Source: a virus
UHGV virus genome: UHGV-1747320
Length of the DNA stretch: 25,402 nt
Direction: 5' to 3' (one strand)
Position 1 is the stretch's first letter. Each line of letters opens with the position of its first letter. Both the position numbers and the translations under genes were made by a program. Shown here one piece after another: positions 1-10,353 of this stretch. The notes under the pieces were generated by a model, which ran no database searches, was not told where the DNA came from, and worked only from the letters and a program-made list of their open reading frames with translations.

Positions 1-487
1 ATCCGAAAACATTCATACGCGCGATACCCACGACACGCCATTCCCCAAACAGCGAAGAAACACAGAATCACTGAACCCCCCCAACGAAGCCTGTAACCGC
101 AAGGCTTCTCTCAATCCCAAAAGACACGAAACATAACAATCACGGGAAACGCCATTACCCAATACACGAATAACTACAAAAGCCTTTCACGCACTCCAGA
201 CAAACACAATAACGAAAGGAATCGCCCACCTGCCATTACTCCATACACGGAGAAGAACAATCACCAAAACGACGAGAACACCCCATAGAAGAACCACCGC
301 AAAACGAACGAAACCACATACACCGACAGAGAGAACAACACACCCAATTCACCAACAGAAATAGTCGCCGTATAGAACGTTCTGGAAGGAGTGAGTATTA
401 ACGTCCATAGAGAGGTTGAGACAGATAAAACACGAAGAAAACACAGCATGTATAGCGAAGAAGCCAGGTATGTATAAGTGGGGAGGG
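1..487. other. Non-coding stretch with strong strand compositional asymmetry (plus strand A+C-rich, T and G depleted)
   Basis: No convincing ORF on either strand; track ORFs 261..524(-) and 416..793(+) have low-complexity, Cys/Arg/Trp-rich translations typical of non-coding DNA. Composition judged by eye. Ends at an intrinsic-terminator-like hairpin. Confidence 0.4.
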
Positions 488-511
488 AAGGAGGGGTGTC
501 GCCTCCTTTTT
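488..511 (+). terminator. Rho-independent terminator-like hairpin (stem AAGGAGG/CCTCCTT, loop GGTGTCG, then TTTT)
   Basis: Seen in sequence: 7-bp GC-containing inverted repeat 488-494/502-508 followed by a T-run 507-511. Confidence 0.5.
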
Positions 512-576
512 CGTATTTATTCAACTCCTGATTTTATCCCCCGTAACACCCCTACGGTCAGCCTTCGGTCCATACA

Positions 577-709
577 GGGAAAAGGTTGCATCCCGCTACA
601 GAAACGGCTGGGTTGCCTTCGGGGAACGGCTGGAGGTTTTCAGGGAAACGGTCGAGTTGCCTGTGTGGATTTCGGGAAAAGGCTCGATGCCGGTTCAGGA
701 ACGGTGGCG
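577..709 (+). repeat. Iteron-like array of six direct repeats, consensus (C)GGGAAACGGCTGG
   Basis: Copies begin at about 577, 599, 620, 641, 673 and 696, so spacing is mostly 21-23 bp (about two helical turns). A related cluster lies at 3532-3611. Confidence 0.6.
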
Positions 710-1021
710 TACCGGTATAGCGTGAGGGATAGTTGCGGCTGCCCACCTGTAATGTGCGGGAAGGAGAGAGACGATCACGTGCAGGCGGACTAACTTACCG
801 CTGGATTCCCTCTGAATGCCCAGCTACAGCGTAATTGTGCCAGACAGCCAGCGGGTCACAATCGATTTCAGTAGGTTTTCGGGGAGAGGATTATTCTGCC
901 CACCAGCCACCTTCGGCCACTAAATCAGAATAATGTAAAAAGTGTACTCGGTACTGAACCTGAAAACTCACTGCCAAAACCACATTCACCGGAATAAAAT
1001 CCTTTTTCGCCTGTGCGTTAT

Positions 1022-2999: not shown

Positions 3000-3482
3000 A
3001 TGAATTTTATCGCTACTGTAAACGCACCCGCACATGGCAATATCGCTGTAACGTTCTCTGACATTGAAAAACGAGTACTTGGTGCCTGGCGTCACAATGA
3101 GACGGTAGAACTGTCAGAACAAGAAAAATGCATTATTGCACGCGACATCATTGGCAATCGTCGTTACTCGCGGGTATTTGAGAAAGTGTATGTGGTAAAT
3201 TCTGGATTCGGAACGTTTGTTTTCCCGGTACGCTCCGGGCGATTCTGCCAGTCCAAGCTGATTGAGTTCGCTACGCAGATTTCGGTCTGGATTAAAACTC
3301 AATCGTCGTTCAAATTTTCCGACGATGAAGCAGTATCGCAGGGGATGCGGATCGCCAACAATGCAATTAAATGCAAAAACATTACGTATACCGCTGGCGT
3401 TGATACATGGAAACTGTTTTGCGCTAACTTTATGTTGAATGTATACGCAAGCAACCGCATCCACATCCTTGATGGCGTGTAA
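3000..3482 (+). CDS. Hypothetical protein (160 aa)
   Basis: ATG at 3000 with AAGGA at 2988-2992; terminator directly downstream. Confidence 0.7.
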   Translation: MNFIATVNAPAHGNIAVTFSDIEKRVLGAWRHNETVELSEQEKCIIARDIIGNRRYSRVFEKVYVVNSGFGTFVFPVRSGRFCQSKLIEFATQISVWIKTQSSFKFSDDEAVSQGMRIANNAIKCKNITYTAGVDTWKLFCANFMLNVYASNRIHILDGV

Positions 3483-3491
3483 CTGAGAAGA

Positions 3492-3512
3492 GGGCCAGAA
3501 ACGGCCCTTTCT
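3492..3512 (+). terminator. Rho-independent terminator (stem GGGCC/GGCCC, loop AGAAAC, then TTT)
   Basis: Inverted repeat 3492-3496/3503-3507 plus T-run; the loop carries the AGAAACGG iteron-like motif. Confidence 0.6.
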
Positions 3513-3531
3513 CTATAGCCACCAGCTGCCG

Positions 3532-3611
3532 CAGGGAAATTTTCAGAAACGGCGAGGAACGTATTCATGAGCCGACGGGAAACGGCCAGGATTTTTTCGG
3601 GAAACGGCTGC
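3532..3611 (+). repeat. Second cluster of GGGAAACGG-type direct repeats (copies near 3532, 3544, 3576, 3598)
   Basis: Sequences CAGGGAAA, CAGAAACGGCGAGG, CGGGAAACGGCCAGG, CGGGAAACGGCTGC; same consensus as the 577-709 array. Confidence 0.55.
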
Positions 3612-3735
3612 ATTCGCCTTTATGTAGAAAAAACATCGGGAAGCTGGTGGAATCCAACCAGCGGTTGTCGGACAGGTGAGCGGGGAAATCATGATGACTT
3701 TCGTCGCCTGAGACATCCAGATTTCTTTCGTAGCG

Positions 3736-3779
3736 TAATCACATACGTGATTAAGTGGTGTGATTATGTGAAAAATCAC
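3736..3779. promoter_or_regulatory. Two adjacent operator-like palindromes sharing a GTGATTA half-site (TAATCAC-atac-GTGATTA at 3736-3753; GTGATT-N8-AATCAC at 3760-3779)
   Basis: Seen in sequence; lies in non-coding DNA between the convergent operons. Confidence 0.4.
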
Positions 3780-3805
3780 GCGCACATAATACGCGAGCGG
3801 ATACG

Positions 3806-3850
3806 GAACAAAACAAAATGCCGATCCGCGCCGACAAATAAACGCGGATC
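3806..3850 (-). terminator. Terminator-like hairpin for leftward transcription (stem GATCCGCG/CGCGGATC with T-rich tract on the minus strand)
   Basis: 8-bp inverted repeat 3823-3830/3843-3850; on the minus strand it is followed by TTTTGTTTTGTT (3806-3820). Confidence 0.45.
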
Positions 3851-4019
3851 ACATAGCAAGACTAAAAGCCAATGATTAACCATACGCTATAGCGCAATAT
3901 AACGCGTTTTAAGCGCGTTAATGTGTTAAGTAATGGGTATGTACTGGTAAGGATATAAAAGCGCGTCTATGGCGTTATTTTGGCGCTTATTTTTATGTTG
4001 TTGGAGTGAGTTAAAGACA

Positions 4020-4047
4020 ATAAAAAACGCGCCATCATTGGCGCGTT
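4020..4047 (-). terminator. Rho-independent terminator for the leftward operon (stem AACGCGCC/GGCGCGTT)
   Basis: 8-bp inverted repeat 4026-4033/4040-4047; the minus strand reads hairpin then TTTTTT. Confidence 0.6.
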
Positions 4048-4065
4048 ATGGTGGGAGTATTGGAA

Positions 4066-4103
4066 ACGAAAAAAGCGCCCATAGTGGGCGCTCGATTTTA
4101 TTT
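4066..4103. terminator. Bidirectional terminator (stem AGCGCCC/GGGCGCT, loop ATAGT) flanked by A-run and T-run
   Basis: Stem 4074-4080/4086-4092; minus strand gives hairpin plus TTTTTT, plus strand gives hairpin plus T-rich tail. The 20-nt core is repeated in inverted orientation at 4571-4590. Confidence 0.65.
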
Positions 4104-4158
4104 GTGTAAACTGATTTTAAATCCCATTTCTACAAACGCTTTTAACATTAAAAATATA

Positions 4159-4329
4159 TCAGCGTCGTTCACGTCTGCTTTTTTTTCGCTCCTGGTCGCT
4201 CAATAAGTCAATTTTGCGCGTCGTTTCATCTATAAGCTCGACTGCGCGCCCAGCGTAACCAGCGATCCCAGCGATGCGATTAACATAATATTCATTATGG
4301 ACGTTAACGCCAGCGATAAGAACAAACAT
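4159..4329 (-). CDS. Possible small ORF (56 aa, hydrophobic N-terminus, basic C-terminus) not in the track (below its length cutoff)
   Basis: ATG at 4329 (minus) with GGAG 7 nt upstream, TGA stop at 4159-4161; lies between the 4351 gene stop and the terminator stack. Confidence 0.3.
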   Translation of the reverse strand: MFVLIAGVNVHNEYYVNRIAGIAGYAGRAVELIDETTRKIDLLSDQERKKSRRERR

Positions 4330-4350
4330 GATTAAGCTCCTTAAAAAAAA

Positions 4351-4554
4351 TTAAATAGAATTTTGAAGTTTTCCGATTAATGCGCTTAAACGTAAATATT
4401 CACGTTTACGCTTACAATCTCGTTTACTGTTAAGCAAATCAGAAAACGTAAAATTTAATTGGTCGCGTTGCGCGATCAAATCATCGATTAATTCCAGTTT
4501 ATAAGCGCGATACTTTGCGCGATATTCCGCGCGGATCTTGTCATAGCTGACCAT
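4351..4554 (-). CDS. Hypothetical small basic protein (about 67 aa)
   Basis: Track ORF 4351..4599; the internal ATG at 4554 is preferred because AAGGAG lies 8 nt upstream and the GCGCCC hairpin (4571-4591) would otherwise fall inside the coding sequence. Confidence 0.5.
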   Translation of the reverse strand: MVSYDKIRAEYRAKYRAYKLELIDDLIAQRDQLNFTFSDLLNSKRDCKRKREYLRLSALIGKLQNSI

Positions 4555-4570
4555 CTTTAAAGCTCCTTTA

Positions 4571-4591
4571 AAGCGCCCACTATGGGCGCTT
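4571..4591 (-). other. Intergenic hairpin AAGCGCCC-loop-GGGCGCTT, inverted copy of the 4072-4092 terminator core
   Basis: Exact 20-nt match to the reverse complement of 4072-4091; sits between two co-directional leftward genes, so it is a candidate attenuator or processing site. Confidence 0.5.
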
Positions 4592-4602
4592 AATTCCATT
4601 AA

Positions 4603-5253
4603 TTACGCTTTGAAAGCATCAGCTAGATAATTGTAGAAATCATTCTTGATAAAGCGATATTGCTGCGTACCAGCTTTGGCGCTTCCCATTCCTTTGACTT
4701 TCTCAACAAGTCCAAGACGTTCGCAAAGATTGATCAACTGGTTGGCTTGAGTATAGCCAGCGTCCAATTTAATCTCACACGCTTTTTTAGCTTCATTCAT
4801 TAAATCGAAAACAGCGCCATTAGTGAACGTGTCGATCTCGTCGTTAATCATATCGATTAAAGCAAATACACGAGATCCTGACATATCAGCGACGGAATAA
4901 GTGCATTTGCCAGATTTAATTGATTTAACCAGATAAACCAGTTTTTCCAGAGAATAACTATTAGTCATTGCATCACGGAAAAATACTTCTGGCGCTTGTT
5001 TGCTTGCTTTAATCGCATAGTAGAAAACAGAGCATAATTTTTCGTCTTCTACAGCGTTTACAACGTTGTTGGTGAAGTAAGCAAGTTTAGTGGTCGCAGC
5101 TTGCATATTTGCTTTGTCTGCTTTGGTGTGCGTACCATTTTTATAATGTTCGTTATATGTTTGAGTTGCCAGATCTGCTTTTTCGCGCAGCTCGTCGGAT
5201 ACAATAGATGCAGCTTCAATGATGGACTTTTTAGAAATGATAATGTTAGCCAT
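4603..5253 (-). CDS. Hypothetical protein (216 aa); C-terminal region may be a helix-turn-helix or winged-helix
   Basis: ATG at 5253 (minus) with AAGGA RBS; sigma70-like promoter upstream; codon usage consistent with the phage core. Confidence 0.7.
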   Translation of the reverse strand: MANIIISKKSIIEAASIVSDELREKADLATQTYNEHYKNGTHTKADKANMQAATTKLAYFTNNVVNAVEDEKLCSVFYYAIKASKQAPEVFFRDAMTNSYSLEKLVYLVKSIKSGKCTYSVADMSGSRVFALIDMINDEIDTFTNGAVFDLMNEAKKACEIKLDAGYTQANQLINLCERLGLVEKVKGMGSAKAGTQQYRFIKNDFYNYLADAFKA

Positions 5254-5311
5254 GATTTCAATCCTTAGTATAAAATTTAATTGTCGTTAGCGATTTCGCT
5301 TTCGATGAGTC

Positions 5312-5350
5312 CAATTATCGATATGAGAAAAAAGATTGCAAGCGTTTTTT
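5312..5350 (-). promoter_or_regulatory. Sigma70-like promoter for the 4603..5253 gene (-35 TTGCAA, 17-bp spacer, -10 ATAATT on the minus strand)
   Basis: Read on the minus strand as TTGCAA-N17-ATAATT about 60 nt upstream of the start; a 13-nt poly-T run lies just beyond (about 5348-5360). Confidence 0.45.
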
Positions 5351-5493
5351 AATTTTTTTTTTTTTTTGCAGGGCGAAAGTCCTAGAAATAAATACGAGAT
5401 CGTCGAAGGTGTTCCCTAAATAAATAATCGATTCCGACTTTAGACCTTATATATTTATACGGGGTAGAATTGAAAGAGTATAAAATGAATGGC

Positions 5494-5527
5494 GTGTAAA
5501 ATAATAACCGGACTTAGCCGGTTATTA
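5494..5527 (-). terminator. Rho-independent terminator for the upstream leftward operon (stem TAATAACCGG/CCGGTTATTA)
   Basis: 10-bp inverted repeat 5502-5511/5518-5527; the minus strand reads hairpin then TTTTAC. Confidence 0.6.
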
Positions 5528-5540
5528 CCCTTATAGGAAT

Positions 5541-5840
5541 TTACATCTTTTTTGCATAGTTCCTGATTTCTTTTATTATATATTCCTGAAAACGCTCCGA
5601 GTTTTCGCATTTGTCTTTTGAAGACTCATCAAGTCCCAACTTGCATCCCGCAACGATCAGTCCATCTTGATATGCAGCGCCTAAAGCCATGCTTAGGTCT
5701 AACATGCACAAATCGTAGTCTTCCGCCTTTGAACACAACTCTGTAGAGACACGTTGCACTCGTTCAATGCTATTTTCTTGAGAAAATGCGGAAGAGCTAA
5801 AAATGAAAGTTAAGAATGTGAATGCTGCTACAGTTTTCAT
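5541..5840 (-). CDS. Small secreted protein with N-terminal signal peptide and four conserved Cys (99 aa); paralog of 5916..6212
   Basis: N-terminus MKTVAAFTFLTFIFSSSAFSQ is signal-peptide-like; AGGAT RBS; shares the pattern C-x8-C-M-x2-L-S-x-A ... C ... C-E with the neighbouring gene. Confidence 0.65.
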   Translation of the reverse strand: MKTVAAFTFLTFIFSSSAFSQENSIERVQRVSTELCSKAEDYDLCMLDLSMALGAAYQDGLIVAGCKLGLDESSKDKCENSERFQEYIIKEIRNYAKKM

Positions 5841-5849
5841 ATCAATATC

Positions 5850-5908
5850 CTAAAACGGTAAAATTCGGTCAACCAAATCGAAGAAAACAAGAATTTTTCT
5901 GCCGTCTT
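5850..5908. repeat. Copy B of an about 58-bp direct repeat; the second copy at 6215-6274 encodes the C-terminus of the 187-aa protein
   Basis: Sequence GGTAAAATTCGGTCAACCAAATCGAAGAAAACAAGAATTTTTCTGCCGTCTT differs by about 2 mismatches from 6223-6274. In copy B the reading frame still spells ...DGRKILVFFDLVDRILPF-stop, a gene 3-prime remnant. Confidence 0.7.
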
Positions 5909-5915
5909 CATACAT

Positions 5916-6212
5916 TTATCGGACTGACTCTACAGCCTTACGATTGGTGTCAAAAAGCGTATCAACGAACAGCAATGAAGAGTTGTTCAATTCACATGGT
6001 TCATAATTTTCCACCTGTTCACATAGTTGAGCGGTCTTACCTATGTTTATCCCTAGTTTTACTGCTGCTGAAAGTTGAAACATGCAAACTGGAATATTCT
6101 GAGACGTTGAGCATACGTCATGCATCAGCGACTTAATAATTGCAATATCATCCTTTGCATTGGCTGAAATTGAGTAAACTAAAAATAATGATGTCAATAG
6201 TATCGATTTCAT
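5916..6212 (-). CDS. Small secreted protein with signal peptide and four conserved Cys (98 aa); paralog of 5541..5840
   Basis: N-terminus MKSILLTSLFLVYSISANA; weak RBS; conserved Cys spacing shared with the paralog. Confidence 0.6.
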   Translation of the reverse strand: MKSILLTSLFLVYSISANAKDDIAIIKSLMHDVCSTSQNIPVCMFQLSAAVKLGINIGKTAQLCEQVENYEPCELNNSSLLFVDTLFDTNRKAVESVR

Positions 6213-6214
6213 AA

Positions 6215-6274
6215 CTCAAAAAGGTAAAATTCGTTCAACCCAATCGAAGAAAACAAGAATTTTTCTGCCGTCTT
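6215..6274. repeat. Copy A of the about 58-bp direct repeat (overlaps the stop and last about 19 codons of 6216..6779)
   Basis: See 5850-5908. Confidence 0.7.
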
Positions 6275-6779
6275 TCAACTTAAGTGTGACTAGGCAGGCA
6301 TCAACGCCATCTGACGTTCCCTCAATTTCGCGGCCGTCTGCCATGTAGACCCTTATAGATTGGCCGTTTTGATAAGCCTTGCGACATATCTTAAAAAAAT
6401 CACGACGTGATGGCTGGTTGTCTACATAGTCAGGGTGTATTGTTAGTCTCCCTTTGAAATCGTAATCAATGCCATCAATTACGCCTGATTCAATTGTGCT
6501 AATGCGCTCAAGTGGGAGCCTTATACGATTTTCTTTGTCAAATGGAGTTGGACAAAGGTCAACTTTGTTACGAGATGACATGAGACCATAAACGTACATG
6601 CAAAACACTTGGCCGTCTTCGAGAGTGACTCTTACAGGAAATTTAGCCCTCCGCCAGAAGAGCAAGGTGCGTTCAGCATGTTCGTAGTCTCGCGGCCATA
6701 CTTCAGCCGGTATGCCGTAGGTGATATCTTTCGTCGTCATATCATTATAAAGTGGTTGGCAATATGTCCATTGTACCAT
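6216..6779 (-). CDS. Hypothetical protein (187 aa; possible alternative start at 6740)
   Basis: Long ORF without recognisable catalytic motifs; the C-terminal stretch SIRVYMADGREIEG...LVTLKLKDGRKILVFFDWVERI looks beta-rich; no clear SD for either start. Confidence 0.55.
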   Translation of the reverse strand: MVQWTYCQPLYNDMTTKDITYGIPAEVWPRDYEHAERTLLFWRRAKFPVRVTLEDGQVFCMYVYGLMSSRNKVDLCPTPFDKENRIRLPLERISTIESGVIDGIDYDFKGRLTIHPDYVDNQPSRRDFFKICRKAYQNGQSIRVYMADGREIEGTSDGVDACLVTLKLKDGRKILVFFDWVERILPF

Positions 6780-7164
6780 CCCAGGTAGTGAAAACCCGAT
6801 ATGTTTTCGAATCGCCCTGCTTTAGCTTTATTTCTCGTTCCATCCTGGAGGGGTTAAATGCGCAAAGACCTGAACTTTCAATTGATGTCCCAACGATCCA
6901 CTCTCCTTCGTTAAGGTAGAAAGTTGCTTTTTCACCAGGTTCTAGCTTTGCAGCCGTTTCTCCATTGATGAAAATGGAAGCGTTACATGCAGAACCAACC
7001 AGCCCTTTGTCTCGAACTATTGTTAGACTAGACTCATGTGGTGTTTGATATTTAAATATTCTGCTTTGAGGTGCATCCTTTGCCTTTGAAATAGATATAG
7101 ACGAAGACGAACACCCAATTAGTGACGTGGTTAGCATTAGAATCATTAAGTTTTTTGCTTTCAT
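6745..7164 (-). CDS. Putative lipoprotein (139 aa) with lipobox L-I-G-C
   Basis: N-terminus MKAKNLMILMLTTSLIGCSSS: hydrophobic signal followed by a lipobox Cys; AT-rich codon usage. Confidence 0.65.
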   Translation of the reverse strand: MKAKNLMILMLTTSLIGCSSSSISISKAKDAPQSRIFKYQTPHESSLTIVRDKGLVGSACNASIFINGETAAKLEPGEKATFYLNEGEWIVGTSIESSGLCAFNPSRMEREIKLKQGDSKTYRVFTTWDGTMDILPTTL

Positions 7165-7191
7165 ATTTGATTGACTATGATTAGTGAGTGG

Positions 7192-7740
7192 TTACATGCT
7201 ATTCTGAGTTCTGTTGTAAATATCTTTTAAGAGGTCATCTCTTTTTATGTTTTTACAGACTTTGTCGAAACTTAATTCACCTGATGATATGCAGTTGTTG
7301 TATTTTTCGATAAAATTTTTTAATGCCAGATGATTTTTGAAAAGAAAAGAAAAACCATAGGGTGACGTGCTATCTCTTATCCATTTCCGAGCACTGGGAT
7401 AAGTGTATAAATTTGAATGCAACTCCAATTTTCCAGGGGCCACGCCATCACAGGAGTCCATAATAGCGAACATTTTTGATATATCAAAAGGATAAAAGAC
7501 TACTCCGCAATTTGTCCTGGTGCCTTCAATATCTTTCACGTATATATAGTGTTCATAACGATCTTTACGTGAAGTCTTTAACCTGTATTGTATTAGTTTG
7601 TGCTCTTCTTTTTGAGAAGAAGTTAGGTGTCTAGGGTTTTCTAAGCAAGATTTCTGTTTATTTTTTTTATGATAAAAATCCACACAGTCCTTTATTTCCT
7701 TTGCACTTAAAAATCTCTTATCAAAAGGTAAGTGACCCAT
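7192..7740 (-). CDS. Hypothetical protein (182 aa), AT-rich, no recognised domain
   Basis: ATG at 7740 (minus) with GGAGG 5 nt upstream; Lys/Asn/Tyr-rich composition. Confidence 0.6.
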   Translation of the reverse strand: MGHLPFDKRFLSAKEIKDCVDFYHKKNKQKSCLENPRHLTSSQKEEHKLIQYRLKTSRKDRYEHYIYVKDIEGTRTNCGVVFYPFDISKMFAIMDSCDGVAPGKLELHSNLYTYPSARKWIRDSTSPYGFSFLFKNHLALKNFIEKYNNCISSGELSFDKVCKNIKRDDLLKDIYNRTQNSM

Positions 7741-7844
7741 TCATGCCTCCGGTTCTAAACATAGGTAAGCCTACAAATATCGTTCAGCCAATCAAGATCT
7801 TTTTTCAGCCGGAGGTATATGTTTCAAAAAACGTGACGAATGTC

Positions 7845-7874
7845 ACATGCAGGTGCTCTCATACACCTGCATGT
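7845..7874 (-). terminator. Perfect 11-bp stem hairpin (ACATGCAGGTG / CACCTGCATGT) just downstream of the 7881..8447 stop; terminator or attenuator candidate
   Basis: Inverted repeat 7845-7855/7864-7874 with an 8-nt loop; on the minus strand a T-run follows about 13 nt later. Confidence 0.45.
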
Positions 7875-7880
7875 AGACTA

Positions 7881-8447
7881 TTAATCATTCAATAATCTAT
7901 ATTTTCTTTTGATTAAATCTTCACCTTTTTTGGTGAACACAAAACCAAATTGCGATTTTTTGTTTAGACGAAGGACTCTATTATCCAACGCATCGGTTGA
8001 TGGAATCAATGTTTGATCATCTATCCAATTAAGTAGCGTAAGAAAGTTCAGCAGCCTCAACGTTGTTGTGCGAAGCTCTTTCGATATATTTTCAATGCTG
8101 GCAATTCGTCTTTCTTTTTTCTCAGGTGGTACAGATAATTGTTCTTGAGATTTCGTGGATAGATAATCAATTTCGTTTGCTGCATCGAATGATATGTGAG
8201 GCGTAATTTTGCTAAAAAAGCCTTTCGCTGACTCACTTGATAATAAACCAGATCTATTCATATCGTTTGTTATTCTGTACAGGAGTGGACTGTGTTTCAT
8301 TTCAGGATAACGTTGATAAAAGTTAAGCAATTCAAAAGCAGCATTAGCACCAACAAGAAAATCAGAAGGATCGCTGACTTTCCAGAACGAATGATTTTTC
8401 TTAGCGCCAGTGGTGTCAACAAATGATAATTCTTTTAACCAACTCAT
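7881..8447 (-). CDS. Hypothetical protein (about 188 aa), AT-rich, no recognised domain
   Basis: Track ORF 7881..8480; ATG at 8447 is preferred because AAGGAG is 6 nt upstream. The start region lies inside an 11-bp-stem hairpin. Confidence 0.6.
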   Translation of the reverse strand: MSWLKELSFVDTTGAKKNHSFWKVSDPSDFLVGANAAFELLNFYQRYPEMKHSPLLYRITNDMNRSGLLSSESAKGFFSKITPHISFDAANEIDYLSTKSQEQLSVPPEKKERRIASIENISKELRTTTLRLLNFLTLLNWIDDQTLIPSTDALDNRVLRLNKKSQFGFVFTKKGEDLIKRKYRLLND

Positions 8448-8480
8448 GATGTGCTCCTTTCTAACAAGTGAGCACATCAT
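8446..8480 (-). promoter_or_regulatory. Hairpin sequestering the RBS and start codon of the 7881..8447 gene (arms ATGATGTGCTC / GAGCACATCAT)
   Basis: Perfect 11-bp inverted repeat 8446-8456/8470-8480 with a 13-nt loop; in the mRNA the AAGGAG SD and the AUG fall in the loop edge and 3-prime arm. Confidence 0.5.
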
Positions 8481-8512
8481 AGAATTAGTATATAGGGGGT
8501 AAATATGAAATG

Positions 8513-8791
8513 TTACGGCAACCTGCTCAGTATTTCCTCTAGATCTTTTTTTGTCATATTGGAGTTTTCATAGATGCGCATGATTTTCTCACGCGTCTTA
8601 GCGGAAACCCCAACGGCAGATGTAACTTTGTCAAATTCAGCCATAGTCATCGTCTCCAGAATGGCATTGATAACTTCAGCCTTAGACATCTTGATTTTTT
8701 TCTCTTTGAGTTTTATTTGAAATTTTCCAAGTTTTTCATTGGCCTTATCAGACAATGCCACTTGGCAATAAGTTGTTTTCTTTTCGCTCAT
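8513..8791 (-). CDS. Small protein (92 aa), possibly ribbon-helix-helix-like DNA-binding; translationally coupled to the helicase
   Basis: ATG at 8791 lies 2 nt after the helicase stop (8794-8796). The fold guess is from a strand-helix-helix-like pattern (TYCQVAL ... SKAEVINAILET) only. Confidence 0.55.
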   Translation of the reverse strand: MSEKKTTYCQVALSDKANEKLGKFQIKLKEKKIKMSKAEVINAILETMTMAEFDKVTSAVGVSAKTREKIMRIYENSNMTKKDLEEILSRLP

Positions 8792-8793
8792 AA

Positions 8794-10353
8794 CTAATCT
8801 CGTTTCAGAACTCCAAAATCGAATGCGCCATCAACAGGCAATACACCTTCTGCAAAGCCAGGTGTGGTGTCGATGATGTGTTTTCGCTCATAAGAGTGAG
8901 ACAACAGGTATTTGTTGCTAATGTCAATGAAATCAGTGATAAAACACACGTTTGCCTGATTCTTCTTGGCTCGTAAGCCACGACCGACACGTTGTCTCAT
9001 TTCAACTTCTGCTTTCCCACCACCAGCAAGAATGACCGCACCAACGCTTGGCACATCAACACCGACATCCAGAATAGTCGAGCCTATTAAAACATCTATT
9101 TCTCCAGACGCTAAACTGTTCAGCTTTGCTTGCCTTGTCGCTTGGTTCGATTCCCCATAGATGAAGTCAACTCTAAGGCCGGACTCCTTCATCATCTCCA
9201 TCAGGATTTGCCCGTGGCGTTTAAGACGAACCAGAGTCATGCAATTGAGAGAATGTTGCTTATAGAGCAATGCTTCGCGCACAATGGCCTCGTTACGTCC
9301 CAAATTATACACGATCCCCAACTGATAAGCCTTTTGGTAGGCAGTGCTCATACCTACTCTAAAATTAAGGTGTTTGTTGGCAAGTTCCGCCTTGATTCTG
9401 ACCTCGTCTGGCTTGTAGGCAACTTTATGATAAAGGAAGTACGGTTTTGCCAGAATGCCTCGATCAATCAGGTACTTTTCCGTGACTTTTATTTCAATTC
9501 GCCCAGCCACTGCCATCAGACGCATGTTGGCTTCCGTAGAATCCTTCATGAACGGCGTTGCCGTAAGCGCCAGACGATAGTCTGCGTTCACACATAATCT
9601 GGCAATGTCATAGAAATTAGAACCTGAAGACTCATGCGCCTCTTCCAGAATAAGCAGAGACACACTTGAAAGGAAGCGTTTCACCAAGTCCCGACGTTTG
9701 AGGTGGTAGCTCTTCTTATCTGGAGTTGCATCGCGTGGTGGTTCTTCAAGGAAACTTGCCAGAGTTTGAACTGTTGCGACGTTGATATGTCGTGATACCT
9801 GGAACTCACCCGAGCCAATGACTCCAACCTTTTGGTCCTTTAACCACGGTTCGCCATTTTCGGCGCGGTAGTCGATGGATCTCTGGAAGTTTTCGGCCAT
9901 TTGAAACATCAGAACAGAGCGGGTTGTTAAAAATAATGTCATTCGACCGATACGTGCAGCTGCTTTGCAGGCAACGTTAGATTTCCCACCACCAGTAGCG
10001 ATCTGGGCAATCATCATTCCCTCGCGAACTAGTGTTTCCACAGCCTGATCCTGATATGCATAATCAGGATTGTATGGGAATGGGTTAACCGCCGGATTTG
10101 GCTTTCCAAGCGCCGGGGCTTTGTCTTTGCGGATATGAACACATTTGATGCCCGCCTTGTTCAAGTTCGCCGCTACAGGCTTGGCAAAGCCAGCAGGGAA
10201 CGAGTTTTTACTCCAGTTGAACATCGTGCTTGTGCCCTTCCAGTCGCCAGTCTCGACTTCGTAGCTCAACATCTGTTGCACCAGTTGCTTTACCTTGTCA
10301 TCTGCGCCAGAAATAAGCGCATTAACTGCGTTAGATACAATCCGAACAGTCAT
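8794..10353 (-). CDS. Superfamily 2 (DEAD/DEAH-type) DNA helicase (519 aa)
   Basis: Motif I ATGGGKS, motif II LILEEAHE, motif III TATP, motif VI QRVGRGLR are present in the canonical order. Confidence 0.85.
   Translation of the reverse strand: MTVRIVSNAVNALISGADDKVKQLVQQMLSYEVETGDWKGTSTMFNWSKNSFPAGFAKPVAANLNKAGIKCVHIRKDKAPALGKPNPAVNPFPYNPDYAYQDQAVETLVREGMMIAQIATGGGKSNVACKAAARIGRMTLFLTTRSVLMFQMAENFQRSIDYRAENGEPWLKDQKVGVIGSGEFQVSRHINVATVQTLASFLEEPPRDATPDKKSYHLKRRDLVKRFLSSVSLLILEEAHESSGSNFYDIARLCVNADYRLALTATPFMKDSTEANMRLMAVAGRIEIKVTEKYLIDRGILAKPYFLYHKVAYKPDEVRIKAELANKHLNFRVGMSTAYQKAYQLGIVYNLGRNEAIVREALLYKQHSLNCMTLVRLKRHGQILMEMMKESGLRVDFIYGESNQATRQAKLNSLASGEIDVLIGSTILDVGVDVPSVGAVILAGGGKAEVEMRQRVGRGLRAKKNQANVCFITDFIDISNKYLLSHSYERKHIIDTTPGFAEGVLPVDGAFDFGVLKRD

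What the first reader, a model, noticed from the sequence alone, without database searches (positions are those of the whole stretch)
3483..4160. About 680-bp hairpin-dense non-coding region between convergent operons, with an exact 20-nt hairpin core repeated in inverted orientation
Seen in sequence: no credible ORF (track ORF 3567..3875 has a junk-like translation); instead an iteron cluster, two GTGATTA operator-like palindromes (3736-3779), and at least four GC-stem hairpins (3823-3850, 3901-3921, 4026-4047, 4074-4092), the last two forming strong terminators for leftward transcription. The core AAGCGCCCATAGTGGGCGCT at 4072-4091 recurs as its reverse complement at 4571-4590 between two leftward genes. 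Inference: a convergent-transcription buffer with stacked bidirectional terminators, possibly also an origin or small-RNA locus; the inverted copy suggests a mobile or recombination-spread hairpin element used for attenuation.
Basis: partly seen in the sequence, partly recalled or inferred. Interest (0 to 1): 0.5.

Follow-up and report, generated by a model that had tools for sequence, protein, structure and literature searches.

The report
Terminator-flanked control gap in a phage-plasmid
This is the conserved non-coding junction where the two converging gene blocks of an SSU5-type phage-plasmid end, made of ordinary stacked transcription terminators (one of which is re-used as a boundary for swappable small-gene cassettes) around a shielded stretch of repeats and a promoter whose job is still unknown.

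Summary
Window 3483-4158 is a non-coding gap in an E. coli SSU5-like phage-plasmid, and it is kept in 784 plasmid records from several enterobacterial genera.

Its right end carries two stacked intrinsic terminators for the leftward operon (t2 4026-4047, t1 4073-4092). Its left end carries the terminator of the rightward 160-aa gene.

The "inverted" 20-mer at 4572-4591 is a direct copy of t1 whose 3-nt loop has flipped. Relatives carry 1-3 copies. These bracket one or two unrelated small genes in different combinations, and loops flip independently at every hairpin. The hairpin is therefore a locus-bound terminator and cassette boundary. It is not a genome-wide mobile element and not an invertible switch.

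Between the terminators lie:
- four RGGAAACGGC direct repeats, with a second array 3 kb upstream;
- two outward-acting Chi sites;
- a promoter-like element pointing left, present in 45 of 50 relatives;
- palindromes that exist only in this lineage.

No conserved ORF, Rfam family or large RNA structure is present. The repeats are not the plasmid RepA iterons, and their function is unresolved.

Interest is moderate to low.

The parts
3486..3514 (+). Intrinsic terminator (H0) of the rightward 160-aa gene (3000-3482): GGGCC-AGAAAC-GGCCC plus a T-rich tail
   Evidence: dG -15.2 kcal/mol, z -3.9. The stem is kept through changes in other lineages (GGGGC...GCCCC; pairs 29-59 to 40-47 are 100% paired in 50 sequences).
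3498..3608 (+). Array B: four direct RGGAAACGGC repeats (GAAACGGC at 3498, 3546, 3579, 3601). The central pair is spaced 22 bp in every lineage examined.
   Evidence: 81% identical to SSU5, against 70% for the adjacent coding DNA. All copies lie on the + strand.
3519..3526 (-). Chi octamer (CCACCAGC on the + strand), active against RecBCD moving rightward
   Evidence: Present in 40 of 50 relatives at this position.
3614..3633 (.). Conserved block GCCTTTATGTAGAAAA next to the repeats
   Evidence: Conservation profile; alignments A1 and A3.
3643..3650 (+). Chi octamer GCTGGTGG, active against RecBCD moving leftward
   Evidence: Present in 47 of 50 relatives, including mosaic variants whose surrounding sequence does not align.
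3736..3779 (.). Two lineage-specific palindromes (TAATCAC-ATAC-GTGATTA and GTGATT-N8-AATCAC), directly downstream of the leftward promoter-like site
   Evidence: Other lineages carry different palindromes here (CACGT-N7-ACGTG).
3786..3816 (-). Conserved sigma-70-like promoter pointing left: -35 TTGTTT (3816-3811), 19-bp spacer, -10 TATTAT (3791-3786)
   Evidence: Score of at least 5 in 45 of 50 sequences. The -10 is T-A-T-N-A/G-T in all lineages, with the 4th position free (TATTAT, TATCAT, TATGAT, TATAGT).
3822..3851 (-). Hairpin with a T-rich tail (leftward terminator-like), found only in the E. coli lineage
   Evidence: dG -16.7 kcal/mol; scan; the stem is not conserved in other lineages.
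3971..3994 (+). Weak plus-strand terminator-like hairpin followed by a conserved GGCGCTTATTTTT
   Evidence: A nearby helix shows AU to CG swaps in 18 sequences (columns 581-597).
4026..4047 (-). t2: second intrinsic terminator of the leftward operon (AACGCGCCA-loop-TGGCGCGTT plus U6)
   Evidence: dG -14.8 kcal/mol. The stem is near-invariant. Loops flip between genomes: ACAA 31 / TTGT 9, TCAT 15 / ATGA 10.
4073..4092 (-). t1: first intrinsic terminator of the leftward operon (AGCGCCCA-loop-TGGGCGCT plus U6)
   Evidence: dG -15.5 kcal/mol. Invariant in 50 sequences. Loop TAG 81 / CTA 9. In distant relatives it occurs as 2-3 tandem copies at 44-47-nt spacing.
4159..4329 (-). Cassette gene B (phrog_1585). 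Here it is cut to 56 aa by a +1 frameshift in a T8 run (4179-4186); relatives have T7 and 76 aa.
4351..4554 (-). Cassette gene A (67 aa, phrog_6145)
4572..4591 (-). Inner copy of the t1 hairpin with a flipped loop, between the stop of the 216-aa gene (4603) and the start of gene A (4554). Its tail is only UUU, followed by the ribosome-binding site.
485..710 (+). Sister module outside the finding: a plus-strand terminator (485-512) followed by array A, about six RGGGAAA(A/C)GG repeats at roughly 22-nt spacing
   Evidence: Copy number varies by 22-nt indels between relatives.

Best explanation
The window comes from an E. coli SSU5-type phage-plasmid. Positions 3483-4158 are the conserved non-coding junction where its very long rightward gene array meets a roughly 6-kb leftward operon (helicase, then the FljA-family regulator, then the 216-aa gene, then small cassette genes).

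**Shown**
1. The rightward unit ends at hairpin H0.
2. The leftward operon ends at two stacked canonical intrinsic terminators, t1 and t2. Every lineage keeps at least two such hairpins, always oriented for leftward transcription.
3. The t1 hairpin is duplicated upstream, just after the 216-aa gene. The copies bracket one or two unrelated small genes whose content differs even between genomes about 98% identical.
4. Hairpin loops invert independently, while the stems and the gene orientation stay fixed.

**Inferred**
- The hairpin copies act as short homology patches for gain, loss and exchange of cassettes.
- Loop flips arise from intra-hairpin template switching or arm recombination.
- The inner copy, which has only a UUU tail, attenuates or stabilises the transcript rather than fully terminating it.

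**The shielded core (about 500 bp between the terminators)**
- It carries four same-strand RGGAAACGGC repeats bracketed by two Chi sites, each positioned to stop RecBCD coming from outside.
- It also carries a conserved leftward promoter-like element, with lineage-specific palindromes at its predicted start.
- I infer that this core is a DNA-level protein-binding and regulatory module that has to be kept free of read-through transcription. Its precise role, and the protein that binds it, are not identified.

The confidence of 0.65 applies to this statement as a whole. It is about 0.85 for the terminator and cassette-boundary parts and about 0.45 for the 'DNA-level binding module' reading of the core.
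For: **Identity and context**
- 96-97% identity to Escherichia phages PhiR41_1, Cyrano and CMS-2020a.
- Gene maps show that almost all genes are on the + strand except the block ending at this gap.
- The gap is conserved in 784 plasmid records from Klebsiella, Escherichia, Enterobacter, Yersinia (pMT1), Salmonella (pHCM2) and others.

**Non-coding**
- No conserved ORF.
- No Rfam hit.
- RNAalifold finds only the terminators plus small helices.

**Terminators**
- Fold energies and U-tails.
- The t2+t1 block is 92% identical to SSU5, against 70-82% for the flanking genes.
- Tandem t1 copies occur in distant relatives.

**Cassettes**
- Arrangements seen: hp-A-hp, hp-B-hp, hp-B-A-hp, hp-B-hp-B'-hp, or a single hairpin.

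**Loop flips**
- Counts; a CTA/CTA combination is never seen.

**Locus-bound**
- 2 copies in 108 kb.
- 145 of 147 viral-contig copies lie in the same context.

**Repeats**
-.

**Promoter-like site**
-.

**Chi**
-.
Against: - No transcript ends, start sites or protein binding were measured, so terminator and promoter function rest on sequence and conservation only.
- The promoter-like site has an unusually long 19-bp spacer. The stricter consensus scan found no promoter in the region.
- Both Chi octamers are lost in a few relatives, for example pMT1. Chi is also generally frequent in this genome, 20 copies in 108 kb.
- No candidate binding protein was found. The adjacent 160-aa protein has no recognisable fold.
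- High conservation of t1 and t2 could partly reflect homogenisation by recombination rather than selection.
Confidence: 0.65

Rival explanations
1. The shielded core is a second (lytic) origin of replication. An unknown initiator binds the RGGAAACGGC iterons next to the AT-rich block. The origin is activated by transcription from the repressor-gated leftward promoter, by analogy with the transcription-activated origins of lambda and P1 oriL.
For: - Four direct repeats with an invariant 22-bp central spacing, next to a conserved AT-rich block.
- Terminators on both sides.
- A conserved promoter firing into the repeats, with palindromes at its start.
- Chi sites oriented toward the array.
- The plasmid replicon lies elsewhere and uses different iterons.
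Against: - No DnaA-box enrichment.
- The AT-rich block is only about 20 bp.
- No initiator gene is adjacent.
- Cumulative GC skew is uninformative.
- A second array of the same repeats lies 3 kb away, which fits a regulator's sites as well as it fits an origin.
Confidence: 0.2
2. The core encodes a leftward non-coding RNA of about 270-300 nt, starting near 3779. Its CCGUUUCCC repeats would pair with the GGGAAACGG repeats of array A on the rightward transcript. This would control termination or translation there, in the manner of the P4 CI or P1 c4 immunity RNAs.
For: - A conserved leftward promoter-like element.
- Array A lies on the rightward transcript just after an extremely C-rich, G-poor tract and a terminator.
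- The repeat units share about 17 of 22 nt between the two arrays.
Against: - No conserved RNA structure on the region.
- No good terminator for a leftward RNA at H0 in most lineages.
- No Rfam match, including to known phage antisense RNAs.
- The pMT1 sRNAs listed in that Y. pestis RNA-seq study (sR082, sR083) lie elsewhere on the plasmid, not at this locus (PMC3770706).
- The 5' half of the putative RNA is the least conserved part of the gap.
Confidence: 0.12
3. The repeats are cis-targets, on RNA or DNA, of the phage-plasmid's FljA-family regulator, which is encoded 2.6 kb away at 6216-6779.
For: - Full-length Pfam Flag1_repress match, E 4e-80.
- A transcriptional-regulator gene occupies the syntenic position in the Klebsiella and Y. 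pestis elements; its family was not tested. If it is the same regulator, and given that these hosts lack phase-variable flagellin (my knowledge), its target would lie on the element.
- Window 3568-3578 (GAGCCGACGGG, just before a repeat) is identical to an 11-mer of the E. coli fliC 5' leader, GAGCCGACGGGTGGAAACCC.
- In other lineages H0 has a UGGAAAC loop like that of the fliC leader hairpin.
Against: - The invariant core GAAACGG does not match the fliC leader (GAAACCC).
- The 11-mer is exact only in the E. coli lineage, and the chance of such a match is roughly 0.02 by my estimate.
- The FljA binding site could not be checked in the literature held here.
Confidence: 0.12
4. The 20-nt hairpin is a mobile REP/MITE-like palindromic element, or the two copies are the inverted repeats of an invertible DNA switch.
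For: - Exact repetition.
- The two copies in this window have opposite loop orientation.
Against: - Only two copies in a 108-kb genome, both at this locus.
- 145 of 147 copies in viral contigs lie in the same context.
- The flanks match in direct orientation.
- The genes between the copies are never inverted, and loops flip one at a time.
- No recombinase gene is adjacent.
Confidence: 0.03

Closest known systems
Tandem Rho-independent (intrinsic) terminators at the meeting point of convergent operons
   Same: - GC-rich perfect stems of 8-9 bp, loops of 3-4 nt and U6 tails.
- Placed right after the last gene of the operon.
- Stacked in pairs or triplets.
   Different: - One of the hairpins is re-used upstream as an intergenic boundary with a poor U-tract.
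- The stems are far more conserved than the neighbouring genes.
PeSL (promoter-early stem-loop) cassettes of T4-type phages (PMC2839356, PMC4122927)
   Same: Short conserved stem-loop motifs flank small, unrelated, variable ORFs and serve as points of exchange, producing indels between close relatives.
   Different: - No promoter is part of the repeat here.
- Only 1-3 copies, at a single locus, rather than dozens across hyperplastic regions.
- Different phage group.
Hairpin-loop 'minute inversions' known from plastid spacers such as trnH-psbA (PMC2903610)
   Same: The loop between perfect inverted arms is found in both orientations among close relatives, recurrently and independently of phylogeny.
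   Different: - Seen here in the terminators of a bacterial phage-plasmid.
- Three different hairpins at one locus all show it.
Iteron arrays of plasmid and phage replicons (for example P1 incC/incA, lambda ori)
   Same: - Same-strand direct repeats at about 22-bp (two-turn) spacing.
- Two separate clusters.
- An AT-rich neighbour.
   Different: - The sequence is unrelated to this element's own RepA iterons (ACCGCTGACAGCATAC).
- No initiator gene lies between or beside the clusters.
- No DnaA boxes.
E. coli REP/BIME palindromic units
   Same: GC-rich palindromes in intergenic DNA after genes, often between convergent genes.
   Different: - REP elements occur in hundreds of copies genome-wide.
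- This hairpin is confined to one locus of one mobile-element family.

Membership tests
Intrinsic (Rho-independent) terminator | Stable GC-rich stem-loop immediately followed by a U-tract on the transcribed strand | tested here: met
   - t1: -15.5 kcal/mol plus UUUUUU.
- t2: -14.8 kcal/mol plus UUUUUU.
- H0: -15.2 kcal/mol plus UUUCUCU.
- The inner copy at 4572-4591 has only UUU, so it meets the criterion only partly.
Intrinsic (Rho-independent) terminator | Located downstream of the last gene of a transcription unit, in the matching orientation, and conserved | tested here: met
   Gene maps. The orientation of the U-tracts is conserved in 50 relatives and in more distant loci.
Intrinsic (Rho-independent) terminator | RNA 3' ends map to the U-tract | not testable with these tools
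   Needs Term-seq or 3' RACE.
PeSL-type shuffling cassette boundary | Conserved stem-loop flanking variable, unrelated small ORFs, with indels at the motif between close relatives | tested here: met
   Five arrangements of genes A and B between hairpin copies, including differences among genomes about 98% identical.
PeSL-type shuffling cassette boundary | The motif is composite: an early promoter joined to the stem-loop | tested here: not met
   Only about 17 nt, holding the ribosome-binding site, separate the inner hairpin from the start of gene A. No promoter-like site is there.
PeSL-type shuffling cassette boundary | Many copies dispersed through hyperplastic regions of the genome | tested here: not met
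   2 copies in 108 kb, both at this locus.
Iteron-type replication origin | Cluster of direct repeats at helical-turn spacing | tested here: met
   GAAACGGC at 3546, 3579 and 3601, with the central pair 22 bp apart in all lineages.
Iteron-type replication origin | Adjacent AT-rich unwinding element and host-factor (DnaA) boxes | tested here: inconclusive
   - A conserved AT-rich block of about 20 bp at 3614-3633.
- No DnaA-box enrichment; one 1-mismatch site in the region.
Iteron-type replication origin | Repeats match the sites of an initiator encoded by the element | tested here: not met
   The RepA (IncFIB) iterons are ACCGCTGACAGCATAC and flank repA about 70 kb away. No other initiator was identified.
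Iteron-type replication origin | Supports initiation of replication | not testable with these tools
   Needs marker-frequency analysis, 2D gels or an origin-cloning test.
Known RNA family (Rfam 15), including phage antisense and immunity RNAs | Covariance-model match at the gathering score | tested here: not met
   - No match in the whole window.
- The best sub-threshold hit is 32 bits, against 56 needed, over the terminators.
- No match in 1-1100.
Invertible DNA segment (site-specific switch) | The segment between the inverted repeats is found in both orientations, and a recombinase gene is nearby | tested here: not met
   Genes A and B are always on the minus strand in about 90 loci. Loops flip singly. 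No recombinase gene is adjacent.

The most novel reading that the evidence does not exclude
The two terminator-preceded arrays of RGGAAACGGC repeats (3498-3608 and 565-710) may be the cis-targets of the element's own FljA-family protein.

- This protein family is otherwise known only as a repressor of flagellin fliC mRNA.
- On this reading it would be a general regulator of SSU5-type phage-plasmids, which would explain why a regulator gene sits at the same position in elements of Klebsiella and Y. pestis.
- The shielded core would then be a regulator-loaded control site (an origin, a roadblock or a decoy), gated together with the adjacent leftward promoter.
Probability: 0.12. Interest if true: 0.6.

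Novelty: new variant of a known kind. Interest (0 to 1): 0.35.

Why it matters
SSU5-type phage-plasmids are common in clinical Enterobacteriaceae, and they include pMT1 of Y. pestis and pHCM2 of S. Typhi. Their regulatory DNA is essentially unannotated.

This analysis does three things:
- It marks where the two main transcription units stop.
- It shows a simple hairpin-bounded mechanism for gain and loss of small accessory genes.
- It flags a conserved, transcriptionally shielded repeat-and-promoter module, plus a sister array, as the most promising unannotated control site of the family.

The terminators themselves are ordinary. The value lies in annotation, and in a testable lead on how these elements are controlled or replicated.

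Tried and rejected
- **Rfam.** Gathering-score search on the whole window, and permissive searches on 3400-4650 and 1-1100: nothing usable. tRNA/tmRNA scan: none.
- **Large structured RNA.** RNAalifold on 50 sequences gave only the terminators, with a covariation term of -3.7. Rejected.
- **Hidden small protein.** No ORF is conserved across lineages. Rejected.
- **Known Y. pestis pMT1 sRNAs.** sR082 and sR083 lie elsewhere on the plasmid.
- **RepA iterons.** The sequence is unrelated. Rejected.
- **Lambda-type cosB sites.** The resemblance (GGAAACG) is recalled from memory only. The terminase is T4/P22-like rather than Nu1/gpA-like, and it lies 10 kb away. Not pursued.
- **CsrA-sponge idea.** The conserved core is GAAACGG rather than GGA. 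Dropped.
- **DnaA boxes.** No enrichment.
- **Cumulative GC skew of the complete relative genome.** Dominated by gene orientation and uninformative.
- **The 160-aa neighbour as candidate binder.** No Pfam match, no PDB sequence hit and no fold match; the model has pLDDT 79.
- **Wider scan for paired repeats in viral contigs.** Besides SSU5-type loci, many hits fell on short or otherwise unrecognised contigs whose context was not examined; not analysed further.
- **FljA binding-site papers.** Not held in the library.
Full report
**What the window is.** Positions 3000-5300 are 96-97% identical to Escherichia phages PhiR41_1, Cyrano and CMS-2020a, and about 83% identical to parts of Salmonella phage SSU5. 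The window is therefore part of an E. coli SSU5-type phage-plasmid. In the complete PhiR41_1 genome nearly every gene is on the + strand. The main exception is one block of about 6 kb (window ~4100-10353) that runs leftward from a helicase gene. The finding is the gap where the last rightward gene (160 aa, 3000-3482, phrog_1641) meets the end of that leftward block. Every relative inspected has the same gap of 590-640 bp. A 751-nt query spanning it matches 784 plasmid records from Klebsiella, Escherichia, Enterobacter, Yersinia pestis (pMT1), Salmonella (pHCM2), Citrobacter and others.

**Checking the observation.**
- The region is non-coding. Across 14 lineage representatives, the ORFs of at least 35 aa differ in position, frame and sequence on both strands.
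- It is hairpin-dense. It folds better than shuffles on both strands, z -5.4 and -8.0. The terminator-like scan finds 9 sites against 1.8 expected.
- Individual hairpins have the following energies:

| Hairpin | Coordinates | dG (kcal/mol) |
|---|---|---|
| H0 | 3486-3514 | -15.2 |
| lineage-specific | 3822-3851 | -16.7 |
| weak | 3899-3922 | -8.0 |
| t2 | 4026-4047 | -14.8 |
| t1 | 4073-4092 | -15.5 |

- The 20-mer AAGCGCCCATAGTGGGCGCT is at 4073-4092, and its reverse complement is at 4572-4591. None is expected by chance.
- The GTGATTA palindromes exist but are not conserved outside this lineage.

**The terminators.**
- On the minus strand, t1 and t2 are textbook intrinsic terminators: 9-bp GC-rich stems, 3-4-nt loops and U6 tails.
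- The t2-spacer-t1 block is 92% identical between this window and SSU5. The flanking genes are only 70% and 82% identical at the DNA level.
- More distant relatives fill the t2 position with a second t1 copy, or carry three t1 copies at 44-nt spacing. The U-tract always lies on the strand of the leftward genes.
- Stacked leftward terminators are therefore a conserved property.
- The plus-strand T-run after t1 is not conserved, so 'bidirectional' does not hold.
- H0 is the terminator of the 160-aa gene. Its stem is maintained through base changes in other lineages.

**The repeated hairpin.**
- The stem is a perfect palindrome, so only the loop and the flanks tell orientation. The flanks align in direct orientation (family D2).
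- Among 91 relatives with the hairpin, 48 have TAG/TAG. Ten have TAG/CTA, as here. Eight have CTA/TAG, and none has CTA/CTA.
- t2 shows the same behaviour: ACAA 31 / TTGT 9, TCAT 15 / ATGA 10, TCAA 3 / TTGA 1.
- The 'inverted copy' is thus a direct copy with a flipped loop. Recurrent loop inversion between perfect arms is known from plastid spacers (PMC2903610).
- The copies bracket two unrelated small genes: A (67 aa, phrog_6145) and B (75-76 aa, phrog_1585). The arrangements seen are hp-A-hp, hp-B-hp, hp-B-A-hp (this window), hp-B-hp-B'-hp, or a single hairpin. They differ even among genomes about 98% identical in the gap.
- The genes are never inverted.
- The hairpin occurs only twice in the 108-kb PhiR41_1 genome. 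Of its copies in viral contigs, 145 of 147 lie in the same context.
- It works like the PeSL boundaries of T4-type phages (PMC2839356, PMC4122927). It lacks their promoter half and their genome-wide spread, so I do not file it as a PeSL.
- The inner copy has only a UUU tail followed by the ribosome-binding site of gene A. It is therefore at most a partial terminator. This is inference.

**The shielded core (3519-4020).** Conservation is patchy.
1. GAAACGGC occurs at 3498 (inside H0), 3546, 3579 and 3601.
   - The central pair is 22 bp apart in every lineage.
   - The octamer occurs only six times in 108 kb. Five of those are in this array or in a sister array at window 565-710.
   - The sister array also follows a plus-strand terminator (485-512), and its repeat number varies by 22-nt indels.
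   - All copies are on the + strand.
   - They are unrelated to the element's RepA iterons.
2. The array is bracketed by Chi octamers: CCACCAGC at 3519 (40 of 50 relatives) and GCTGGTGG at 3643 (47 of 50).
   - The second is retained even where the surrounding sequence has been replaced.
   - From the known polarity of Chi, each would stop RecBCD arriving from outside.
3. One promoter-like site is conserved in 45 of 50 sequences. It points left, with -35 TTGNNN, a 19-bp spacer and -10 T-A-T-N-A/G-T.
4. Directly downstream of it lie palindromes that differ between lineages. The GTGATTA set is found here and CACGT-N7-ACGTG elsewhere. This is the least conserved part of the gap, at 39% identity.
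5. Comparison with close relatives shows mosaic breakpoints near 3634, 3780-3816, 3853 and 4017.

**What the core is not.**
- It gives no Rfam match.
- It has no conserved RNA structure beyond the terminators and a few short helices.
- It has no conserved ORF.
- It shows no DnaA-box enrichment.
- The neighbouring 160-aa protein gives no clue to a binder.

**What the core may be.** The core is insulated on both sides. The repeats are on one strand at two-turn spacing, and the promoter looks gated. This points to a DNA-level binding and control site.
- I rank a lytic origin first among the specific roles (0.2).
- Next come a leftward regulatory RNA that pairs with the sister array (0.12) and target sites of the FljA-family regulator at 6216-6779 (0.12).
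- The FljA lead rests on three points:
  - a full-length Pfam match;
  - a regulator gene at the syntenic position in the Klebsiella and Y. pestis elements, whose family I did not test;
  - an exact 11-mer shared between 3568-3578 and the E. coli fliC leader.
- By my estimate the chance of that 11-mer match is about 0.02. The invariant repeat core does not match the leader.

**Expression data.** In Cyrano lysogens of LF82 grown in LB, the 160-aa gene (CYRAN_111) reads 25.5 on a scale where the neighbouring silent genes read about 5. The cassette gene and the 216-aa gene are at that floor, and the FljA-family gene reads 18 (PMC9928086, table S1). The intergenic region itself was not quantified there.

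**Verdict.** The terminators and the cassette-boundary hairpin are well supported and of known kinds. The repeat-and-promoter core is real and conserved, but its function is unresolved.

Noticed in passing
window 1-480: This tract is extremely A+C-rich and G+T-poor on the + strand (GC skew -0.44, AT skew about +0.5) and has no evident gene. It is conserved at 65-70% identity in other lineages. It lies in the middle of the rightward gene array, just before a terminator. From general knowledge, it looks like an ideal Rho-loading (rut) region.
   Followed up: partly
window 485-800: A plus-strand terminator (485-512) is followed by about six RGGGAAA(A/C)GG repeats at roughly 22-nt spacing. PhiR41_1 annotates a 270-nt CDS over the array (record 31554-31823). 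Between relatives, repeat units are gained or lost by 22-nt indels, so that CDS is probably not real.
   Followed up: partly
window 4179-4186: Cassette gene B (4159-4329, minus strand) is cut to 56 aa by one extra T in a homopolymer: T8 here, against T7 and 76 aa in PhiR41_1 and other relatives. This is either a real pseudogene or a sequencing error.
   Followed up: yes
window 3519-3526 and 3643-3650; whole PhiR41_1 genome: Chi (GCTGGTGG) is frequent in this phage-plasmid, with 11 copies on the + strand and 9 on the - strand in 108 kb, where about 1.6 per strand would be expected by chance (my estimate). A conserved pair brackets the repeat array, each in the orientation that acts on RecBCD coming from outside.
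   Followed up: partly
window 3568-3578 and 6216-6779: GAGCCGACGGG, just before a repeat unit, is identical to an 11-mer in the 5' leader of E. coli K-12 fliC (GAGCCGACGGGTGGAAACCC). The element encodes a full-length FljA-family protein (Pfam Flag1_repress, E 4e-80).
   Followed up: partly
window 3634-4017: The non-coding gap is itself a mosaic. Against close E. coli relatives, identity drops from 94-100% to 41-57% in 3634-3779 (L003). In another relative it drops to about 53% in 3853-4016 (L004). The sharp breakpoints indicate recombinational exchange of sub-modules.
   Followed up: partly
window 5541-6229: This stretch does not align with PhiR41_1, which is otherwise about 95% identical on both sides. 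The genes between the 216-aa gene and the FljA-family gene have therefore been replaced in this element.
   Followed up: no
L099 3900-5600 (PhiR41_1 103,900-105,600): The plasmid replicon has at least 12 copies of a roughly 20-bp iteron (ACCGCTGACAGCATAC...) on both sides of repA. This is the P1-like layout of an origin plus a control locus.
   Followed up: partly
L149 1497-1603; L118; L124; L160; L169: More distant SSU5-type contigs carry two or three identical copies of the t1 hairpin in tandem at 44-47-nt spacing, in place of the t1/t2 pair.
   Followed up: partly
window 3786-3816: The conserved leftward promoter-like site keeps a 19-bp spacer in almost every lineage, and the spacer itself (CGCGAGCG next to the -10) is conserved. 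A spacer this long is unusual for sigma-70 promoters and may point to an activator or DNA-twisting regulator.
   Followed up: no
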